Both the position numbers and the translations under genes were made by a program. From an uncultured delta proteobacterium (GTDB lineage: Bacteria; Desulfobacterota; Binatia; UBA9968): a stretch of DNA of 64,000 nt. Below the pieces are notes generated by a model, which worked only from the letters and a program-made list of their open reading frames with translations, did not search any database and was not told where the DNA came from. The stretch covers positions 1,024,001 through 1,088,000 of the forward strand of contig CAVYTU010000015.1 in the NCBI GenBank assembly GCA_963771465.1, written 5' to 3'. Positions 1-8,804 of the stretch are shown here, one piece after another (the stretch's first letter is position 1; each line of letters starts with the position of its first letter).

Positions 1-320
1 CCGCGCTGCCGGCGGGAAATGAAATCAGCGCCGAACCGACAACCAAAGAGACGGTCGCGCGCTCCGGCGATTCGTTTACGATCGGCTTCAAAGTCGCCAA
101 CCCAACGAGCAAAGAGATCGTGACGCGCATCGTTCATCGCGTCGAACCCAAAGAGCTGGCGCCCTATTTGGATTTGGTCGAGTGCGCGCTCTTACTGCCG
201 GTGCGAGTGGGGCCGGGTGAAGAGCAGCTGTTCAACAGCACCTATCTCGTCCGCGGCGACTTACCCGACGGTGCGAAAACGCTCAAAGTCACTTATGAGT
301 TCAAGGTTGAGAGTAACTGA
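1..320 (+). CDS. Cox11/CtaG-like copper assembly protein, 5' partial
   Basis: Frame is open from base 3: LPAGNEISAEPTTKETVARSGDSFTIGFKVANPTSKEIVTRIVHRVEPKELAPYLDLVECALLLPVRVGPGEEQLFNSTYLVRGDLPDGAKTLKVTYEF. By eye it aligns with the Cox11 Ig-like domain (N-P-[ST], V-x-P, Y-x-x-x-[IV]-E-C, P-G-E, terminal L-x-x-Y-x-F). Adjacent to SCO. Confidence 0.6.
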   Translation, partial: ALPAGNEISAEPTTKETVARSGDSFTIGFKVANPTSKEIVTRIVHRVEPKELAPYLDLVECALLLPVRVGPGEEQLFNSTYLVRGDLPDGAKTLKVTYEFKVESN

Positions 321-915
321 ACAGCTTGGCGCCGCGATGCTCGCGGTCGCTTTGCTACCATCGACAGCTCGGTCGCATATCCCGATCCCGCCCAAACAGC
401 CAAGCGAAATCGGCCGGCGCGTCGTCAAAACCGCTGTGCCCGATTTCAAACTGACCGATCAGAACGGTAAACAATTCCAACTCAGTAGCAAACGGGGAAA
501 TCTAGTTCTCACGACGTTTATCTTCACCACCTGCCCCGACGTATGTCCGCTATTTACCGCCAAGTTTGCCGCGATCCAGCGCGCCTTGGACGACAGAAAA
601 TTCAAAGACTATTGGTTGCTCAGCATCACCACCGACCCGGAGCATGACAACGCAGCGGCATTGAAGGATTACGCCAACCGGTTCAAAGCCGACTCAGCCC
701 ACTGGTCGTTTCTCACCGGCACGCGGTCGGATTTGACAAAAACGTGGAAAGCCTTTGGCGTCAACGTCACCAGGACCGAAGCTGGACAGGTTTTTCACAC
801 TGCACTCACCACTCTCATCGATCGGCGCGGCAACCGCCGAGTCGATTATTACGGTGACAAATGGCTCGACCAAGAAGTGCTCAAGGATATCCAGTGGCTG
901 AGCTCGCAAAAATGA
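307..915 (+). CDS. SCO family copper chaperone (paralog 1)
   Basis: Signal peptide-like N-terminus, PDFKLTDQNG, FIFTTCPDVCP (CxxxC), SITTDPEHD and the distal His (VFHT). Start is TTG 307 or ATG 337. Confidence 0.92.
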   Translation: MRVTEQLGAAMLAVALLPSTARSHIPIPPKQPSEIGRRVVKTAVPDFKLTDQNGKQFQLSSKRGNLVLTTFIFTTCPDVCPLFTAKFAAIQRALDDRKFKDYWLLSITTDPEHDNAAALKDYANRFKADSAHWSFLTGTRSDLTKTWKAFGVNVTRTEAGQVFHTALTTLIDRRGNRRVDYYGDKWLDQEVLKDIQWLSSQK

Positions 916-1478
916 TCCCGCGCCGAGCGTTAACGCTTTTTCTTACACTGCTATTCACTCATTGCCTTGTAACACCGGCAAGCGCAGCCCAGCGCGAGCA
1001 AGGCGTGCTGGAGATTCAAATCAAAGATCATCGCGACGCGATCGGCGATTTCGCGAAGCTAAATATCACCATCGAGAAATTCTCAATTAGCCCGAAACCA
1101 GCGTTAAAGATTTGGCAACCCAACTGGAAAGAAATCAGCTCCACATCCTCACCGGTTGACTTGACCCAATATGTAGGAAACAAAACTGCAAGAATATTTC
1201 GCGGCACGATTGATGCCGGATCGTTTGATGCATTTCACCTAAAGATCAAAACAATCGACGGACTCTTGAAGAAAAAACAGCGCTCCGTACGGGTGAAAGA
1301 CAAGACCGGTCCGGTTAAACTTTCTTTCGACATCAAACCAAAGGGCGAAACCATTTTGATTCTCGACTTCGTGGTATCGGATATGTCCGATCACCCACCG
1401 CTCGGTTATGAACTCGGAATACGGGGGCTCGAACTTTTTACCAACGGCAAGCTCGTTGAGAAAATCCCGCCGGGGTAA
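912..1478 (+). CDS. DUF4382-like exported protein
   Basis: ATGA overlap with the SCO stop; signal peptide ending ASA; the G-x-L-x-I-x-I-x-D, VDLT and terminal ILDF pattern is typical of DUF4382. Confidence 0.6.
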   Translation: MIPRRALTLFLTLLFTHCLVTPASAAQREQGVLEIQIKDHRDAIGDFAKLNITIEKFSISPKPALKIWQPNWKEISSTSSPVDLTQYVGNKTARIFRGTIDAGSFDAFHLKIKTIDGLLKKKQRSVRVKDKTGPVKLSFDIKPKGETILILDFVVSDMSDHPPLGYELGIRGLELFTNGKLVEKIPPG

Positions 1479-5203: not shown

Positions 5204-5848
5204 ATGAACGATTCAAAACGTTTCTTGTTATTCAGCACCGCGGTCGTCGTCCTGGGGATCGTGCTCGGCACGGCGCTTTGGTTGAAGCTCGAACCGCAGC
5301 GTCAACTCGGGGCGTGGAATGACAACGGCCCGGACGGGCTAAAGCAGTACGGCGCGGTGCCGGAATTTTCCTTGATGGAGCGGAGCGGCGCCGGCGTCGA
5401 TCTTGCCCAGTTGCGTGGCAAGATCTGGGTTGCTGACTTTATCTACACGACTTGCACCGACACCTGTCCGTTGCAAACCGGCATGATGGCAAGGTTGCAA
5501 GAAGAGTACGCCTCCAAGCCCGATGTCCATTTAGTTTCGGTCACCGTCGATCCCGAACGTGACACGCCCCAGACTTTGTCGCTCTACGCCGCAAAGCATG
5601 GAGCGGATGCCAAGCGCTGGTTATTTTTAACCGGACAACGAGATCGCATCATGAATCTGATTCGCGACGGTTTTCATTTAAGCGTGGCAACCTTGCCCAA
5701 CAGCGCCGAGCCAACCGGCATGATCCCGCACAGCCCGCGCTTTGTTCTGATCGACAAAGAGGCGCGTATCCGTGGCTATTATGACAGCCGCGAACTCGAA
5801 GCGTTTGTCCGGCTGAAAAATGACATTGACACGTTATTGAAAAGTTAA
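5204..5848 (+). CDS. SCO family copper chaperone (paralog 2, membrane anchored)
   Basis: N-terminal TM, FIYTTCTDTCP (CxxxC), VTVDPERDTP, IPHSPRFVLID (His ligand). Confidence 0.93.
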   Translation: MNDSKRFLLFSTAVVVLGIVLGTALWLKLEPQRQLGAWNDNGPDGLKQYGAVPEFSLMERSGAGVDLAQLRGKIWVADFIYTTCTDTCPLQTGMMARLQEEYASKPDVHLVSVTVDPERDTPQTLSLYAAKHGADAKRWLFLTGQRDRIMNLIRDGFHLSVATLPNSAEPTGMIPHSPRFVLIDKEARIRGYYDSRELEAFVRLKNDIDTLLKS

Positions 5849-5863: not shown

Positions 5864-6739
5864 ATGGCGCAAGAGACCAGAAGCAAGAAAGGTAAGCAAC
5901 CGGCGGCAAAAGGATTATTACGCGCCGGACCGAATTGGCCGCTGTTTATTCTTGCTCTGCTCGGCATGGTGTTGTCCGGCTACCTCACTTTTACCGCTTG
6001 GCAAGGCAGGCTCGTCGCCTTTTGCACCGAAGGCGCCGGCTGCGACCTCGTGCTTAACAGCCGTTGGTCGACGCTGTTCGGCATGCCGACATCTTTTTGG
6101 GGTTTTCTCACCTATGGTTTGCTCGCCGCGGTGGCATGGAACCGTTATGCCGATAATCAGTGGCGCTGGGCTTGGGTCATTTCGCTCTTCGGCTTGCTGT
6201 TCAGTTCCTATTTGACAGCTATTTCATTTTTTGAGCTCAAGGCCGCTTGTCCCTATTGCCTCGCGTCGCTCGGCATTATGGCGGCGATCTTCGTCATGAC
6301 AACCCTGCAACGTCCGGCGAATCTACCCAAATTTTCTTGGGGGCCATGGCTCGGCAAATCACTCGGCGCGGCGGCCGCAGTGATCATCGCGCTTCATCTC
6401 TATTTCGCCGGGTATTGGGGCGACGCGCCGGGACCGGAAGATCCCTGGGTCAGGAATCTGGCTGAACATTTGACCCGGTCAGACGTCAAATTCTACGGCG
6501 CCTCATGGTGCCCGCATTGCCAAGATCAGAAAAAATTGTTCGGCAGCTCTGTGAACCGAATACCATATATCGAATGTAGCCCAGGCGGGCCCAATACGCC
6601 CCAAGCAGCGGAATGTAAGACAAAGGGTATTCAGACCTATCCCACTTGGATCGTTAACGGTCAGCGGCATACCGGCGTGTTACCCCTCGATACCTTGGCC
6701 CAACTGAGCAAATTCAACTACCAGGGAGGAAAGCCGTAA
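5864..6739 (+). CDS. Vitamin K epoxide reductase (VKOR) domain fused to a thioredoxin-like domain
   Basis: Loop Cys pair C-TEGAG-C followed by VLNSRWS, membrane CPYC motif, then C-terminal FYGASWCPHC...IEC...C...IQTYPTWIVNG. Confidence 0.93.
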   Translation: MAQETRSKKGKQPAAKGLLRAGPNWPLFILALLGMVLSGYLTFTAWQGRLVAFCTEGAGCDLVLNSRWSTLFGMPTSFWGFLTYGLLAAVAWNRYADNQWRWAWVISLFGLLFSSYLTAISFFELKAACPYCLASLGIMAAIFVMTTLQRPANLPKFSWGPWLGKSLGAAAAVIIALHLYFAGYWGDAPGPEDPWVRNLAEHLTRSDVKFYGASWCPHCQDQKKLFGSSVNRIPYIECSPGGPNTPQAAECKTKGIQTYPTWIVNGQRHTGVLPLDTLAQLSKFNYQGGKP

Positions 6740-7206
6740 TGCACGTGTCGTCGGGGAAACAAATATTAATCTTCGCTCTCGTCCTGAGTTGGAGTGCGAT
6801 GGCAATCCAGACAAATGCCAATGCCGATCCGTCGAAGTATCCGGAGTTTGCCCAGCAAACTCTGCCGGAAAACGTTACGCCGGCTTTTATCAACGTCGAC
6901 GAATTGGTCGAACTGGTGAAGGCCGGCACCAAGCCGATGATCATCGATGTGCGCACGGACGAAGAGTTCAAAGAAGCGCATATCCTAGGCGCCATGTCCG
7001 CGCCGCTCGCGGAATTCAAAAATTTCGTCAAAGACATTCCTCGCGATCGGCCGGTCGCGCTCTATTGAGCCTGTCCCCATCACCTGGCCAGTTTGGCCTA
7101 TGGCATTCTTTATGAAAACGGTTACCGCAACATGAAAGTGCTCGACGAAGGCATCAAAGGTTGGCACGAAAAACGCTACCCGATGGCCGGAACCCTGTTC
7201 CGTTAA
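6739..7206 (+). CDS. Exported rhodanese-domain selenoprotein (Sec at UGA 7066-7068, YUACP), 155 aa
   Basis: Signal peptide and IIDVR...AHILGA rhodanese motifs. The UGA falls at the active-site Cys position (VALY-U). The frame continues ACPHHLASLAYGILYENGYRNMKVLDEGIKGWHEKRYPMAGTLFR to TAA 7204-7206, 9 nt before queC. Confidence 0.85.
7077..7103 (+). promoter_or_regulatory. Candidate bacterial SECIS element
   Basis: Lower stem CCAT/ATGG, upper stem GGCCA/TGGCC, apical loop GUU starting 22 nt after the UGA with G in the first loop position. Confidence 0.65.
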
Positions 7207-7215
7207 GCGTGACCG

Positions 7216-7908
7216 ATGGCCGGCACAGACGCTGTTATCCTTTTGAGCGGCGGCATCGATTCCACTACTGCCGCGGCCATCGCTATACAACAAGGCTATC
7301 AACTGCACGCTCTGACCTTTTGCTATGGCCAACGCCACCAACGAGAAATCGAGTCGGCCAAGCGCGTTGCAAGTTTTCTACCGGCCAAAACGCACCGCGT
7401 CATCGAATTCGATCTGAGGTCGATCGGCGGCTCCGCGCTGACCGATCAAATCGCGGTACCCAAAGGACGGAATGACCAGGAGATCGCCGACGGCATTCCG
7501 ATCACTTACGTGCCGGCACGCAACACGATTTTTTTATCCTTCGGTTTGGCGCTGGCGGAGCGCGTCGGCGCGGCGGATATTTTTTTTGGCGCCAACCAAC
7601 TCGACTACAGCGGCTATCCGGACTGCCGCGAAGAATATATCGCGGCTTTCGAAAACATGGCCAACCTTGCCACCCAAGCCGGAGTCGAAGGCAAGACCCG
7701 ACTAAAAATCCACGCGCCGTTGCTCCAGATGACTAAAGCGGACATCATTAACAAAGGCTTGGAACTCGGCCTCGATTACGGCCTCACGTGGAGCTGCTAC
7801 GATCCGGGAAATAATGGAATAGCCTGCGGCCTGTGCGACAGTTGCCGGCTGCGGCTCAAGGGATTTCAAGCAGCCGGCCGCGTCGATCCGATCGCTTACG
7901 CGCGCTAA
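7216..7908 (+). CDS. queC: 7-cyano-7-deazaguanine synthase
   Basis: LSGGIDSTT, YGQRH, TYVPARN, SGYPDCR, TWSCY...CGLCDSC. Confidence 0.97.
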   Translation: MAGTDAVILLSGGIDSTTAAAIAIQQGYQLHALTFCYGQRHQREIESAKRVASFLPAKTHRVIEFDLRSIGGSALTDQIAVPKGRNDQEIADGIPITYVPARNTIFLSFGLALAERVGAADIFFGANQLDYSGYPDCREEYIAAFENMANLATQAGVEGKTRLKIHAPLLQMTKADIINKGLELGLDYGLTWSCYDPGNNGIACGLCDSCRLRLKGFQAAGRVDPIAYAR

Positions 7909-7916
7909 GTCTAAAT

Positions 7917-8804
7917 ATGTTGCCCGCGCCGTTCACGCCGCATTTTCTCACCCAGTTGGAAACTCTCCGGCTGCGTACCCGAAAGGAATTTCTCGGCAGC
8001 CATACGGGCAGTTATTCCTCACCGCGCCGCGGCACAAGTTTGGAGTTCGCCGACTACCGCCGCTATGCGCCAGGTGACGATCTGCGTTATCTCGACTGGG
8101 GCATCTACGCGCGCACCGACCGGCTCTATGTGAAAGTTTACCGCGAAGAAGTCGACCTGTTCGCCTACGTCTTTATCGACGCCAGCGCGTCGATGGCGTT
8201 CCCATCGCGCGAGCAAAAGTTCCTGCCGGCCTCCCACGTTGCTCTGGCGCTTTCGTATGTCATTCTGGCGAATCACGATCACGTCAAGTTGCATCTGCTG
8301 CAGGATCGCAGCAGCGCCTCGCCGTTTTATCGTGGCCGGCGACGTATGGCGGATTGCGTCAATTTCGCGACCGGGGCCAATGTCGGCGGCGCGCTCGACT
8401 TAGCCACATCCTTAAGCGACCACTTGCAACGCTTGCGTCGGCCGGGGAAAGCGATCTTGATCTCAGATTTTTTAATGCCGGCCGCTGCCTACCAGAAGGG
8501 ACTCAATCTGCTGCGCGCGTTTAATCTCGATATCGCCGCGATTCAAGTGCTGACGCGCCAGGAAGTCGATCCCGATTTCCCCGCCGGTAGTTTGGCGCTG
8601 ATCGACAGCGAGAGCCAACGAGAAATTCGCTATCAATGGAACGGCACCGCACGGCGCGATTATCAAACGCGTCTGGCCCATCACAATCTCGAGCTCAAAA
8701 GTTTCTGCCATCAAAGCGGCATTCACTACTCGCTCTACGTCAACGATCGCGACTTGAGCGATTTTATTTTCGCCACCCTGCCGGCCATCGGACTATTTAA
8801 ATAA
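7917..8804 (+). CDS. DUF58 domain protein (MoxR-associated)
   Basis: G-x-S-x-EFADYRRYAPGDDLRYLDW, DASASM, LISDF; ATG at 7917. Confidence 0.92.
   Translation: MLPAPFTPHFLTQLETLRLRTRKEFLGSHTGSYSSPRRGTSLEFADYRRYAPGDDLRYLDWGIYARTDRLYVKVYREEVDLFAYVFIDASASMAFPSREQKFLPASHVALALSYVILANHDHVKLHLLQDRSSASPFYRGRRRMADCVNFATGANVGGALDLATSLSDHLQRLRRPGKAILISDFLMPAAAYQKGLNLLRAFNLDIAAIQVLTRQEVDPDFPAGSLALIDSESQREIRYQWNGTARRDYQTRLAHHNLELKSFCHQSGIHYSLYVNDRDLSDFIFATLPAIGLFK

What the first reader, a model, noticed from the sequence alone, without database searches (positions are those of the whole stretch)
6739..7206. Hidden exported rhodanese selenoprotein (YUACP) with a SECIS-like hairpin
Seen: the ORF track ends the gene at TGA 7066-7068, but this codon is exactly where rhodanese domains carry the catalytic Cys (VALY-C). 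The same frame continues 45 codons with the expected rhodanese C-terminus (GYRNMKVLDEGIKGW...YP) and ends at TAA 9 nt before queC. A hairpin (GGCCA-GUU-UGGCC on CCAU/AUGG) has its loop 22 nt after the UGA. Known: bacterial SECIS elements lie just 3' of the Sec UGA with a G at the start of the apical loop, and rhodanese-type selenoproteins have been reported. Inference: a 155-aa Sec protein with a U-x-C motif and a cleavable signal peptide, i.e. a periplasmic selenoenzyme, which is uncommon and would be truncated by standard annotation.
Basis: partly seen in the sequence, partly recalled or inferred. Interest (0 to 1): 0.9.

Follow-up and report, generated by a model that had tools for sequence, protein, structure and literature searches.

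The report
Exported selenocysteine rhodanese missed by annotation
A small exported enzyme-like protein of soil Binatia bacteria is made by reading a stop codon as the rare amino acid selenocysteine, so gene callers cut it short; it is a new variant of a known kind of selenoprotein.

Summary
ORF 6739-7068 ends at a TGA that lies at the catalytic-Cys column of a rhodanese domain. The frame continues for 45 codons to TAA 7204-7206. The same TGA is present in 43 of 44 orthologs from 61 related genomes (Candidatus Binatia), down to about 40% identity, and full-length Cys forms exist elsewhere. Third codon positions vary freely past the TGA while the amino acids are kept, so the downstream part is translated. 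Codons +5 to +12 are nearly frozen at synonymous sites and form a 5-bp hairpin with a G-first triloop 17 nt after the UGA. One ortholog changes the closing G-C pair to C-G through two synonymous changes. A Cys-form homolog encoding the identical peptide uses other codons and has no hairpin. The genome has selA, selB, selD (itself Sec-containing) and tRNA-Sec. An apparent selB frameshift is an assembly indel. TGA is also the commonest true stop. The motif is L-Y-U-A-C, with Sec and Cys swapped relative to the curated LYCAU rhodanese selenoprotein family (56.7 bits against a 115-bit cutoff). The gene sits in a conserved SCO1 / VKOR-thioredoxin / rhodanese(U) cluster. Its function, probably envelope selenol/thiol redox, is inferred only. 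Verdict: real, a new variant of a known kind, moderate interest.

The parts
6739..7206 (+). Full coding sequence of the selenoprotein: 155 codons plus the TAA stop, with UGA-110 read as Sec. Standard callers stop at 7068 (109 aa).
   Evidence: Of the best 120 database relatives, 119 are 111 aa or shorter, the same truncation.
6739..6825 (+). Predicted Sec-type signal peptide (residues 1-29, cleavage after A-N-A). The mature protein starts D-P-S-K-Y-P.
   Evidence: Hydropathy and -3/-1 residues. 35 of the 35 ortholog N-termini that fitted the pattern behave this way; 44 loci were examined. Inferred, no predictor was run.
7066..7068 (+). Sec codon UGA (U110) at the catalytic-Cys column of the rhodanese domain.
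   Evidence: TGA at this column in 43 of 44 ortholog loci. Aligned with the catalytic Cys of solved rhodaneses.
7072..7074 (+). Cys112 codon, the partner of U110 in the U-x-C motif.
   Evidence: Invariant in all 43 Sec forms. It is replaced by Arg only in the one ortholog that also lost Sec (L045).
7077..7103 (+). SECIS element. Lower helix 7077-7080 / 7100-7103, upper helix 7086-7090 / 7094-7098, apical loop G-U-U 7091-7093.
   Evidence: Synonymous sites are frozen: codons +5..+8 are identical in 29 of 29, and this is the lowest of 78 sliding windows. The upper helix is 98.6% paired and slid controls give 18-46%. L088 carries a compensatory C-G pair and the Cys form L099 lacks the hairpin.
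7204..7206 (+). True stop codon TAA.
5864..6739 (+). Upstream gene: a VKOR membrane domain fused to a C-terminal thioredoxin-like domain (W-C-P-H-C). Its stop overlaps the selenoprotein start (TAATG).
   Evidence: Pfam VKOR 1.4e-26. It lies upstream of the rhodanese in 36 of 40 Sec-form loci. Alignment A5.
5204..5848 (+). SCO1/SenC family gene, first member of the conserved three-gene cluster.
   Evidence: Pfam SCO1-SenC 1.1e-27. Present in 34 of 40 Sec-form loci.
7216..7908 (+). queC, the downstream neighbour. It is conserved next to the gene only in the window's own family, so it is probably not functionally linked.
   Evidence: Pfam QueC 1.7e-73. Present in 28 of 40 Sec-form loci and absent in the deep f3 branch.

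Best explanation
Positions 6739-7206 encode one 155-residue selenoprotein. During translation the UGA at 7066-7068 is read as selenocysteine. SelB carrying Sec-tRNA(Sec) would be recruited by a minimal SECIS hairpin inside the coding sequence: a 5-bp G+C-rich stem with a G-U-U loop, starting 17 nt after the UGA, on a weaker 4-bp lower helix. The product has a Sec-type signal peptide and a single rhodanese-fold domain. Its active-site strand ends in L-Y-U-A-C-P-H-H, with Sec at the canonical catalytic-Cys position and a Cys two residues later at the start of the following helix. Shown here: the recoding signals, their conservation, the Sec machinery, and the Sec/Cys homolog pair. Inferred: export to the cell envelope, and the function. 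My best guess for the function (about 40%) is a selenol/thiol redox centre that cycles through a U110-C112 selenenylsulfide. It would work with the co-transcribed VKOR-thioredoxin oxidase and the SCO1 copper-site assembly protein, for example by setting the redox state of envelope cysteines. The confidence given below refers to the selenoprotein/SECIS claim, not to the function.
For: (1) Conserved TGA. A six-frame search of 61 genomes of the same order found 44 ortholog-level matches (E <= 4.4e-28), 43 of them with an in-frame TGA. In all 43 the TGA is at the same column, in the motif LYU[AQE]CP[HR]H. A second, overlapping collection gave TGA in 40 of 46 loci.
(2) Sec/Cys pair. Full-length homologs carry Cys there: P0163 YCACPHH, P0198, P0177, P0219, P0192 and L099, L106, L108-L110.
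(3) Translation past the TGA. In 29 orthologs of family f1, pairwise differences per site at codon positions 1/2/3 are 0.13/0.033/0.365 for codons +13..+39 and 0.185/0.135/0.515 upstream.
(4) RNA constraint. Codons +5..+8 (CAC CTG GCC AGT) are identical in 29 of 29, although Leu, Ala and Ser have 6, 4 and 6 codons. The +5..+12 window has the lowest synonymous diversity of 78 windows: 0.118, against a median of 0.422 and 0.334 for the lowest non-overlapping window.
(5) Structure. The upper helix is 98.6% paired over 42 distinct sequences, with G-C to G-U in 11. Lower-helix pair 20-42 is A-U in 29, G-C in 9 and G-U in 2. Slid-partner controls give 18-46% paired against 91.3%. L088 has the closing pair G-C changed to C-G through two synonymous changes.
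(6) Natural controls. The Cys-form L099 encodes the identical peptide CACPHHLASLAYG with codons CTC GCG AGC CTC GCC and no hairpin. The only ortholog without Sec (L045/L097, Gly) has also lost the hairpin and Cys112.
(7) Machinery. selA 614 bits, selB 358.6 bits and selD 376 bits with its own in-frame TGA, plus tRNA-SeC. selB is over its cutoff in 54 of 61 relatives.
(8) No global reassignment. TGA closes 1426 of 3636 long frames in this genome. In several orthologs TGA is the gene's true stop about 45 codons after the Sec codon.
(9) Other in-frame-TGA rhodanese candidates in this genome have G+C-rich hairpins at a similar distance, about 16 nt.
Function: the SCO1-VKOR-rhodanese(U) gene order is kept in 36 (VKOR) and 34 (SCO1) of 40 Sec loci, including the deep f3 branch where VKOR is only 48-53% identical. 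The start codon overlaps the VKOR stop.
Against: The hairpin is very small. On the single sequence it is not more stable than shuffles (z +1.5), and RNAalifold preferred other pairs. Three of its five upper pairs never vary, so they say nothing either way. One pair is broken (U opposite C) in 4 f3 sequences that still keep the TGA. Lower-helix pair 21-41 is unpaired in 14 of 42. The compensatory change rests on one sequence (L088), and the 9 G-C cases in the lower helix may be a single event in f3. selB was not found at E <= 1e-60 in 5 of the 43 TGA-bearing genomes: G009, G010, G020, G028 and G045, with completeness 93, 60, 91, 92 and 81%. This genome's assembly shows selB frameshifted, although the short-read contigs remove the extra base. 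There is no protein-level evidence for Se. Rfam has no matching family here. The AlphaFold model was poor (pLDDT 54.3), so nothing about U-C geometry was tested. The functional link to VKOR/SCO1 rests on gene order alone, and Cys-form homologs outside Binatia do not share that neighbourhood (L099, L106-L110).
Confidence: 0.93

Rival explanations
1. The TGA is a real stop. The gene makes a 109-residue rhodanese fragment lacking its active site, and the downstream 45 codons are untranslated or belong to something else.
For: This is what gene callers produce: 119 of the best 120 database relatives are 111 aa or shorter. TGA is the commonest stop in this genome.
Against: Beyond the TGA the frame is kept and evolves like coding sequence: position-2 differences are 0.033 against 0.365 at position 3. 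The Pfam domain runs across the stop. No start codon opens the downstream piece. The TGA is conserved for 43 orthologs down to about 40% identity, whereas stop codons normally interchange. Cys forms are full length.
Confidence: 0.02
2. The UGA is read through, but not as selenocysteine. It could be read by near-cognate Trp or Cys insertion, or by a lineage-specific reassignment.
For: One database homolog (P0022) is printed with W at this column; I could not see its DNA.
Against: TGA ends 1426 of 3636 long frames here and ends this very gene in several orthologs, so there is no reassignment. The column is Cys in homologs, the residue that Sec replaces. A conserved hairpin at SECIS distance accompanies the TGA and is missing from the Cys and Gly forms. 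The complete Sec machinery is present.
Confidence: 0.03
3. Functional rival A: it is a classical exported sulfurtransferase like E. coli PspE. It would carry a perselenide or persulfide on U110 and pass sulfur from thiosulfate to acceptors. C112 and the gene neighbours would be incidental.
For: The fold is rhodanese and U sits at the catalytic position. There are weak matches to the PspE, GlpE and ChrE models. PspE is periplasmic and supplies most of the rhodanese activity of E. coli (PMC2593051, abstract in the search listing).
Against: All sulfurtransferase models score far below their cutoffs: PspE 30.1 against 102, GlpE 27.9 against 102. The usual six-residue active-site loop with basic or Gly residues (recalled) is replaced by U-A-C-P followed directly by the helix. 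C112 is invariant and is lost only together with Sec.
Confidence: 0.2
4. Functional rival B: the U-x-C-P-H-H site binds Cu(I) or another soft metal. The protein would be an envelope metallochaperone working with SCO1.
For: SCO1 is in the conserved cluster in 34 of 40 loci, and a second SCO1 paralog lies 5 kb upstream. H115 is invariant. A UxC metal-transporter selenoprotein family is listed in the 2026 review (SO_0444 family). A Cys-form homolog is followed by a FUR-family regulator.
Against: H114 is Arg in f2 and f3. No copper-related Pfam or NCBIfam match was found. No cytochrome oxidase or copper-export genes lie nearby. Nothing here tests metal binding.
Confidence: 0.2

Closest known systems
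[quoted passage not shown]
   Same: It is a single rhodanese domain with the same strand-end context L-Y-x-A-x followed by Pro, and it is a selenoprotein with a Cys/Sec pair two residues apart. It is the best NCBIfam hit. This genome also holds CxU-type candidates (LYCSUPNE, FCAUPDE) with hairpins at a similar distance.
   Different: Sec and Cys have swapped places: here U is at the canonical catalytic position and C at +2. The score is 56.7 bits against a 115-bit cutoff, so it is not a member. The following loop is P-H-H-L-A-S-L-A rather than P-N/D-E-A-S/T-S-A. It stands alone with a signal peptide, whereas this genome's CxU candidates are fused to membrane domains.
Rhodanese-like selenoprotein forms 1, 2 and 4 (PF00581; motifs UxxS, UxxG) and the UxU form from Olavius symbionts
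   Same: Sec lies in a rhodanese domain. These were predicted computationally and are exported or cytoplasmic proteins of unknown function (PMC13188914 table; PMC1976440 passages).
   Different: The motif here is U-A-C-P, not UxxS or UxxG. I could not fetch the reference sequences, so the relationship was not tested by alignment.
Cys-containing 'C-x-C-P-H-H' single-domain rhodaneses (e.g. P0163, and L099 from a Rokubacteria MAG)
   Same: These are the closest full-length relatives, 43-47% identical, with the same loop and C-terminal half.
   Different: They carry Cys instead of Sec, have no hairpin at the nucleotide level, and have a different neighbourhood: no VKOR or SCO1, and a FUR-family regulator downstream in L099.
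E. coli PspE, a periplasmic single-domain rhodanese
   Same: It is an exported single-domain rhodanese. When overexpressed it can feed oxidising equivalents into the Dsb disulfide system together with DsbC (PMC5403849 passage citing Chng et al. 2012), which is a precedent for a rhodanese acting in envelope thiol redox.
   Different: PspE has one Cys, a canonical loop and no Sec. The PspE models score 30.1 and 28 bits against cutoffs of 102 and 126.
E. coli fdhF-type bacterial SECIS
   Same: It is a hairpin inside the coding sequence just 3' of the UGA, with a small apical loop that has a G (G-U) at its 5' side (PMC1088965 passages; details of fdhF are recalled).
   Different: This one is much shorter: 5 + 4 bp and a 3-nt loop. 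No bulged U is evident and it matches no Rfam model.

Membership tests
Bacterial selenoprotein (SelB/SECIS-decoded UGA) | In-frame UGA conserved among orthologs | tested here: met
   43 of 44 ortholog loci have TGA at the same column, as do 40 of 46 in a second, overlapping set.
Bacterial selenoprotein (SelB/SECIS-decoded UGA) | Homologs with Cys at the Sec column | tested here: met
   P0163, P0198, P0177, P0219, P0192 and L099, L106, L108-L110.
Bacterial selenoprotein (SelB/SECIS-decoded UGA) | Protein-coding conservation downstream of the UGA | tested here: met
   Differences at codon positions 1/2/3 are 0.13/0.033/0.365 for codons +13..+39. The Pfam domain spans the UGA.
Bacterial selenoprotein (SelB/SECIS-decoded UGA) | Stem-loop just 3' of the UGA with a small apical loop containing G | tested here: met
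   The hairpin is at 7077-7103 with loop GUU. Supported by frozen synonymous sites, pair counts, a compensatory pair in L088, and absence from the Cys and Gly forms. The single-sequence stability is not significant. bSECISearch itself was not available.
Bacterial selenoprotein (SelB/SECIS-decoded UGA) | selA, selB, selC and selD in the genome | tested here: met
   The selB frameshift in the assembly is shown to be an indel error.
Bacterial selenoprotein (SelB/SECIS-decoded UGA) | Selenium in the protein | not testable with these tools
   Needs 75Se labelling or mass spectrometry.
Rhodanese homology domain (PF00581) | Profile match above the gathering score | tested here: met
   59.8 bits against 22.2, residues 53-144.
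Rhodanese homology domain (PF00581) | Nucleophile at the catalytic position after the central strand | tested here: met
   The U column aligns with the catalytic Cys of 3tp9 and 6mxv.
Rhodanese homology domain (PF00581) | Canonical six-residue active-site loop (C-x5-R/S/T; the definition is recalled) | tested here: not met
   The loop is U-A-C-P and the predicted helix starts at the Pro. The model has low confidence.
NF041203 rhodanese_LYCAU selenoprotein | Score at or above the curated cutoff (115 bits) | tested here: not met
   56.7 bits. On the genome the locus scores 49.6 bits.
NF041203 rhodanese_LYCAU selenoprotein | Cys at the catalytic position and Sec at +2 (C-x-U) | tested here: not met
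   The order here is U-x-C.
TsoB rhodanese/DsbD fusion selenoprotein (NF045694) | Score at or above 805 bits, UxxxxU motif, DsbD fusion | tested here: not met
   22.5 bits. It has a single domain and one Sec.
PspE / GlpE thiosulfate sulfurtransferases | Equivalog score at or above the cutoff | tested here: not met
   PspE NF007627 30.1 against 102, TIGR02981 28 against 126.3, GlpE 27.9 against 102.

The most novel reading that the evidence does not exclude
The U-x-C rhodanese is the dedicated selenium-based redox partner of a VKOR-thioredoxin / SCO1 module. This would be a previously unrecognised three-component envelope pathway in Binatia. A strained selenenylsulfide on a rhodanese scaffold would shuttle oxidising or reducing equivalents (or Cu(I)) between the quinone-linked VKOR oxidase and the copper-site assembly factor. 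The swapped U-x-C and C-x-U rhodanese families would then be two independent solutions in which either cysteine of an ancestral C-x-C centre was upgraded to Sec.
Probability: 0.25. Interest if true: 0.7.

Novelty: new variant of a known kind. Interest (0 to 1): 0.5.

Why it matters
Practical value: this gene is cut to 109-110 residues in almost every public record, so a whole orthologous family across Binatia, a widespread and uncultured soil and sediment lineage, is annotated without its active site. A family model would repair dozens of genomes.

Biological value:
- It adds a Sec-at-the-catalytic-position, U-x-C form to the rhodanese selenoproteins. Together with the known C-x-U form, it gives a natural pair for asking which cysteine of a C-x-C centre benefits from selenium.
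- It is a clean example of a very small SECIS (5-bp stem, 3-nt loop) whose reality is shown by synonymous-site freezing, a compensatory pair, and a Cys-form control with the identical peptide. That is useful for calibrating SECIS finders.
- The conserved SCO1 / VKOR-Trx / rhodanese(U) cluster suggests a testable role for selenium in envelope thiol or copper handling.

Tried and rejected
- **Single-sequence RNA fold of 7060-7130.** Not more stable than shuffles, so the hairpin cannot be argued from energy.
- **RNAalifold on 43 sequences.** It chose other weak pairs with no covariation.
- **Rfam scan of 6700-7300 at E <= 10.** Two chance-level hits, no SECIS family.
- **AlphaFold2 on a 10-row alignment.** pLDDT 54.3, too poor for a fold search or for judging the U110-C112 distance.
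- **Representative-library search.** The best hits were multi-domain rhodaneses. It was useful only for picking out the single-domain Cys forms.
- **The search for related loci with the mixed Sec/Cys alignment A3.** It failed because no stretch was conserved enough. I repeated it with the ortholog alignment A4.
I did not resend, so binding was never tested.
I reran the analysis from stored files.
- **Literature search 'Binatia/Binatota/selenocysteine/selenoprotein' with any 2 terms.** Too loose and uninformative. The tighter search found 13 papers. By title and abstract none is on Binatia selenoproteomes. One sponge-Binatota paper with a single mention was not read.
- **Sequencing runs.** An RNA run (X6) holds 0.83 of the sampled words of 6500-7500, but I did not lay it because the single read-laying run went to selB. 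I do not count it as evidence of expression.
- **Considered and rejected:** assembly error at the TGA, isolated nonsense mutation, and global TGA reassignment (see the rivals).
Full report
**What is in the sequence.** The window is G000:C15:1024001-1088000. An ORF starts at ATG 6739, overlapping the TAA of the upstream gene, and reaches TGA 7066-7068 after 109 codons. Reading that TGA through, the same frame stays open for 45 more codons to TAA 7204-7206, which is 9 nt before the queC start at 7216. The 155-residue product matches Pfam Rhodanese over residues 53-144 (E 3.8e-16), so the domain spans the stop. In profile alignments to solved rhodaneses the TGA column pairs with their catalytic Cys, as in 3tp9 'VYCRTGGRS' and 6mxv 'LYCGSGFRS'. 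On its own it is not better than chance, with z +1.5 and 192 of 200 shuffles folding at least as well.

**Is the TGA conserved?** I searched 61 genomes of the same order in six frames with the read-through protein. This gave 44 ortholog-level matches (E <= 4.4e-28), 43 with an in-frame TGA and one (G036) without. I extracted 44 loci (L013-L056). In all 43 TGA-bearing ones the TGA sits at the same column, in the motif L-Y-U-[AQE]-C-P-[HR]-H. This holds down to about 40% identity and across three families of the order. The exception, L045 from G036, reads Y-G-N-R-P-R-H, so it has lost both the Sec and the Cys two residues later. One of the 43, L031 from G005, comes from a genome flagged unpublished; removing it changes nothing. 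A pattern scan of GTDB species genomes returned 46 loci, many from the same genomes as before. Of these, 40 have TGA at the column and 6 do not: one Gly (the same G036) and five Cys. The record titles name Candidatus Binatia, or older 'Deltaproteobacteria bacterium' MAGs, for nearly all Sec forms. The Cys forms are from Rokubacteria, Nitrospira, Parahaliea and Steroidobacteraceae MAGs.

**Is the downstream part translated?** I used 29 orthologs of the window's family (L013-L041). L042 was dropped because the contig end cuts it. L056 was dropped because its N-terminal half is out of frame. The f2 and f3 sequences were dropped as too divergent for codon-by-codon counting. Mean pairwise differences at codon positions 1/2/3 are 0.13/0.033/0.365 for codons +13..+39 after the TGA, and 0.185/0.135/0.515 for the 44 codons before it. 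That is the signature of purifying selection on a protein on both sides of the TGA. Public gene calls nonetheless stop there: of the best 120 relatives in a 5.8-billion-protein collection, 119 are 111 residues or shorter. The one longer entry, P0022 at 154 aa, prints W at the column, and I could not see its DNA.

**Is there a SECIS?** Codons +5..+8 (CAC CTG GCC AGT) are identical in 29 of 29 sequences, although Leu, Ala and Ser have 6, 4 and 6 codons. Other Leu columns in the same alignment use 3-6 codons. In a sliding 8-codon window, synonymous diversity is lowest at +5..+12 out of 78 windows: 0.118, against a median of 0.422 and 0.334 for the lowest non-overlapping window.

The upper helix is 98.6% paired, with the closing G-C replaced by G-U in 11. 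Lower-helix pair 20-42 is A-U in 29, G-C in 9 and G-U in 2. The whole structure is 91.3% paired, against 18-46% when the 3' partners are slid by 1-3 columns.

Weak points are as follows. Three upper pairs never vary. One pair is U opposite C in 4 f3 sequences. Pair 21-41 is unpaired in 14. RNAalifold did not choose this fold.

Two natural experiments settle it for me. L088, a Sec form, has CTG to CTC and GCC to GCG, both synonymous, which turns the closing G-C pair into C-G. L099, a Cys form, encodes the identical peptide C-A-C-P-H-H-L-A-S-L-A-Y-G with the codons CTC GCG AGC CTC GCC and has no hairpin. The Gly form has also lost the hairpin. [quoted passage not shown] Rfam has no family that matches.

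**Sec machinery.**
- selA (614 bits), selB (358.6 bits) and selD (376 bits) lie together on contig C14.
- selD carries its own in-frame TGA in G-U-A-A-K-L-G-P.
- ARAGORN finds a tRNA-SeC on C13.
- selB exceeds its cutoff in 54 of 61 genomes of the order, and in 36 of 37 high-quality ones.
- selB was not found at E <= 1e-60 in 5 of the 43 TGA-bearing genomes: G009, G010, G020, G028 and G045, at 93, 60, 91, 92 and 81% completeness.

In this assembly selB is split between two frames by one extra base near C14:198802. Short-read contigs from four metagenome runs all lack one base at that site. These are X1, which may be the source sample, with 7.68 of 7.68 depth, plus one contig each in X2, X4 and X8. 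Removing the base restores a normal SelB N-terminus. It is therefore an assembly indel, not a pseudogene.

TGA is not reassigned. It closes 1426 of 3636 stop-to-stop frames of 300 codons or more. In several orthologs it also ends this same gene about 45 codons after the Sec codon.

**Anatomy of the protein.** Residues 1-29 look like a Sec-type signal peptide, with a hydrophobic core at 8-20 and A-N-A before D30. My pattern fitted 35 of the 44 ortholog N-termini, and all 35 have small residues at -3/-1 before the conserved D-P-x-x-Y-P. The f3 proteins begin M-R-R-F, so a Tat-type signal cannot be excluded there. No predictor was available, so export is an inference. Invariant residues across the three families include D-V-R, H-I, Y-U, C112, P113, H115, R-N-M and E-G..G-W. 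H114 is Arg in f2 and f3. The loop after the catalytic position is only U-A-C, with a predicted helix starting at the Pro (a low-confidence model). This is shorter than the canonical rhodanese loop (recalled).

**Context.** The gene order SCO1 (5204-5848), VKOR fused to a thioredoxin-like domain (5864-6739), then rhodanese(U) is conserved. Among the 40 Sec-form loci, VKOR lies upstream in 36 and SCO1 in 34. Several of the misses are cut by contig ends. The order holds even in the deep f3 branch, where VKOR is only 48-53% identical. queC follows in 28 of 40 and is absent from f3, so it is probably a bystander. No cytochrome oxidase or copper-export genes are nearby. A second SCO1 paralog lies at 217-915. 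The Cys-form relatives outside Binatia do not share this neighbourhood, and L099 is followed by a FUR-family regulator.

**How it probably works.**
- Shown: a Sec-decoded UGA with an in-frame minimal SECIS.
- Inferred: an exported rhodanese-fold protein whose U110 and C112 form a redox pair.

My functional estimates are about 40% for envelope selenol/thiol redox with the VKOR-Trx and SCO1 partners, about 20% for a classical sulfurtransferase, and about 20% for a soft-metal (Cu) site. A precedent for a periplasmic rhodanese feeding the disulfide system is E. coli PspE acting with DsbC (PMC5403849, passage citing Chng et al. 2012). VKOR as a DsbB equivalent comes from the same passages. The strained, oxidising character of C-x-C disulfides is recalled, not looked up. 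A complex prediction with the VKOR Trx domain could not be run.

**Comparison with what is known.** Rhodanese-type selenoproteins have been known since 2005: 'Rhodanese-related sulfurtransferase' in the Sargasso Sea table (PMC1088965), and 8 genes plus a UxU form in Olavius symbionts (PMC1976440). A 2026 review lists five forms, with motifs UxxS, UxxG, CxU (NF041203), UxxG and UxxxxU (TsoB) (PMC13188914, table passages). In that review 'UxC' occurs twice, both times for other families. A 2022 review states the convention that the same domain with a different Sec site or motif counts as a different subfamily (PMC9312934, passage).

Against NCBIfam release 20 the best hit is NF041203 'rhodanese_LYCAU', at 56.7 bits against a 115-bit cutoff. 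All other models are far below their cutoffs. So no curated model covers this family, and its motif L-Y-U-A-C is the positional swap of L-Y-C-A-U. The nearest full-length relatives are C-x-C-P-H-H Cys proteins at 43-47% identity. This genome's own CxU-type candidates are about 33% identical. This fits two separate Cys-to-Sec upgrades on a C-x-C scaffold, which is an inference since no tree was built.

My statement that a U-x-C rhodanese form is not in print rests only. I read passages, not whole papers. I could not open supplements or fetch the reference accessions of forms 1, 2 and 4.

**Verdict.** It is a new variant (a new Sec-position subfamily) of a known kind of selenoprotein. It is clade-wide in Binatia and systematically truncated in public annotation. 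Its SECIS is unusually small but comparatively well supported, and its operon context is suggestive. Confidence that it is a genuine selenoprotein is 0.93. The function remains open. Interest is 0.5: useful and tidy, but not surprising to a selenoprotein specialist.

Noticed in passing
G000 contig C14, about 198800-198810 (L003:1495-1506); outside the window: In the assembly selB is split into two frames by one extra base. Contigs from four short-read runs all lack one base at this site, which restores the frame. This is an assembly indel, so other homopolymer indels may exist in this genome.
   Followed up: yes
G000 C14:230146-230463 (-) and C19:34204-34521 (-); outside the window: Two paralogous genes encode a DedA-like membrane domain fused to a rhodanese. 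Each has an in-frame TGA in 'LYCSUPNE' (the known C-x-U arrangement) and a G+C-rich hairpin about 16 nt downstream. They are probably further selenoproteins.
   Followed up: partly
G000 C3:14470-14814 (+); outside the window: A cation/proton antiporter-like protein has a C-terminal rhodanese domain carrying an in-frame TGA in 'FCAUPDE' with a downstream hairpin. It is the best sub-cutoff hit to NF041203 in this genome (86.2 bits).
   Followed up: partly
G000 C15:847492-847734 (-) and C13:191094-191402 (+); outside the window: There are two more rhodanese frames with in-frame TGAs. One is an exported-looking protein with 'FTUGTGAQS' (a UxxG type). The other is a rhodanese-CBS protein with 'YCHDLQUDLS'. 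Neither was checked comparatively.
   Followed up: no
G000 C14:200711-201637 (+); outside the window: selD is itself a selenoprotein (G-U-A-A-K-L-G-P) and lies directly after selA and selB.
   Followed up: partly
L045 / L097 (genome G036): This is the only ortholog without Sec. The column is Gly, Cys112 is Arg and the hairpin has decayed, yet the gene keeps its frame, its signal peptide, VKOR upstream and queC downstream. It may be a catalytically dead form that has been retained.
   Followed up: partly
window 217-915 (+) and 861-1478 (+): A second SCO1/SenC paralog, followed by a DUF4382 protein, lies 5 kb upstream of the cluster.
   Followed up: no
L099:3432-3905 (+): The Rokubacteria Cys-form homolog is followed, with stop and start overlapping, by a FUR-family regulator gene. 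This is a possible hint of a metal or peroxide link for the Cys forms.
   Followed up: no
L046-L055 (f3 orthologs), N-termini: The f3 proteins start M-R-R-F/L followed by a hydrophobic stretch, which could be a Tat-like rather than a Sec-type signal.
   Followed up: no
L056 (genome G020): The N-terminal half of this ortholog is out of frame and only residues 63-152 match. This is either an assembly indel or a damaged copy.
   Followed up: no
window 7833-8804 (+) and onward to about 13165: Downstream of queC lies a DUF58 / BatA / VWA gene series (aerotolerance-operon type). The DUF58 gene follows queC in most family-f1 loci.
   Followed up: no
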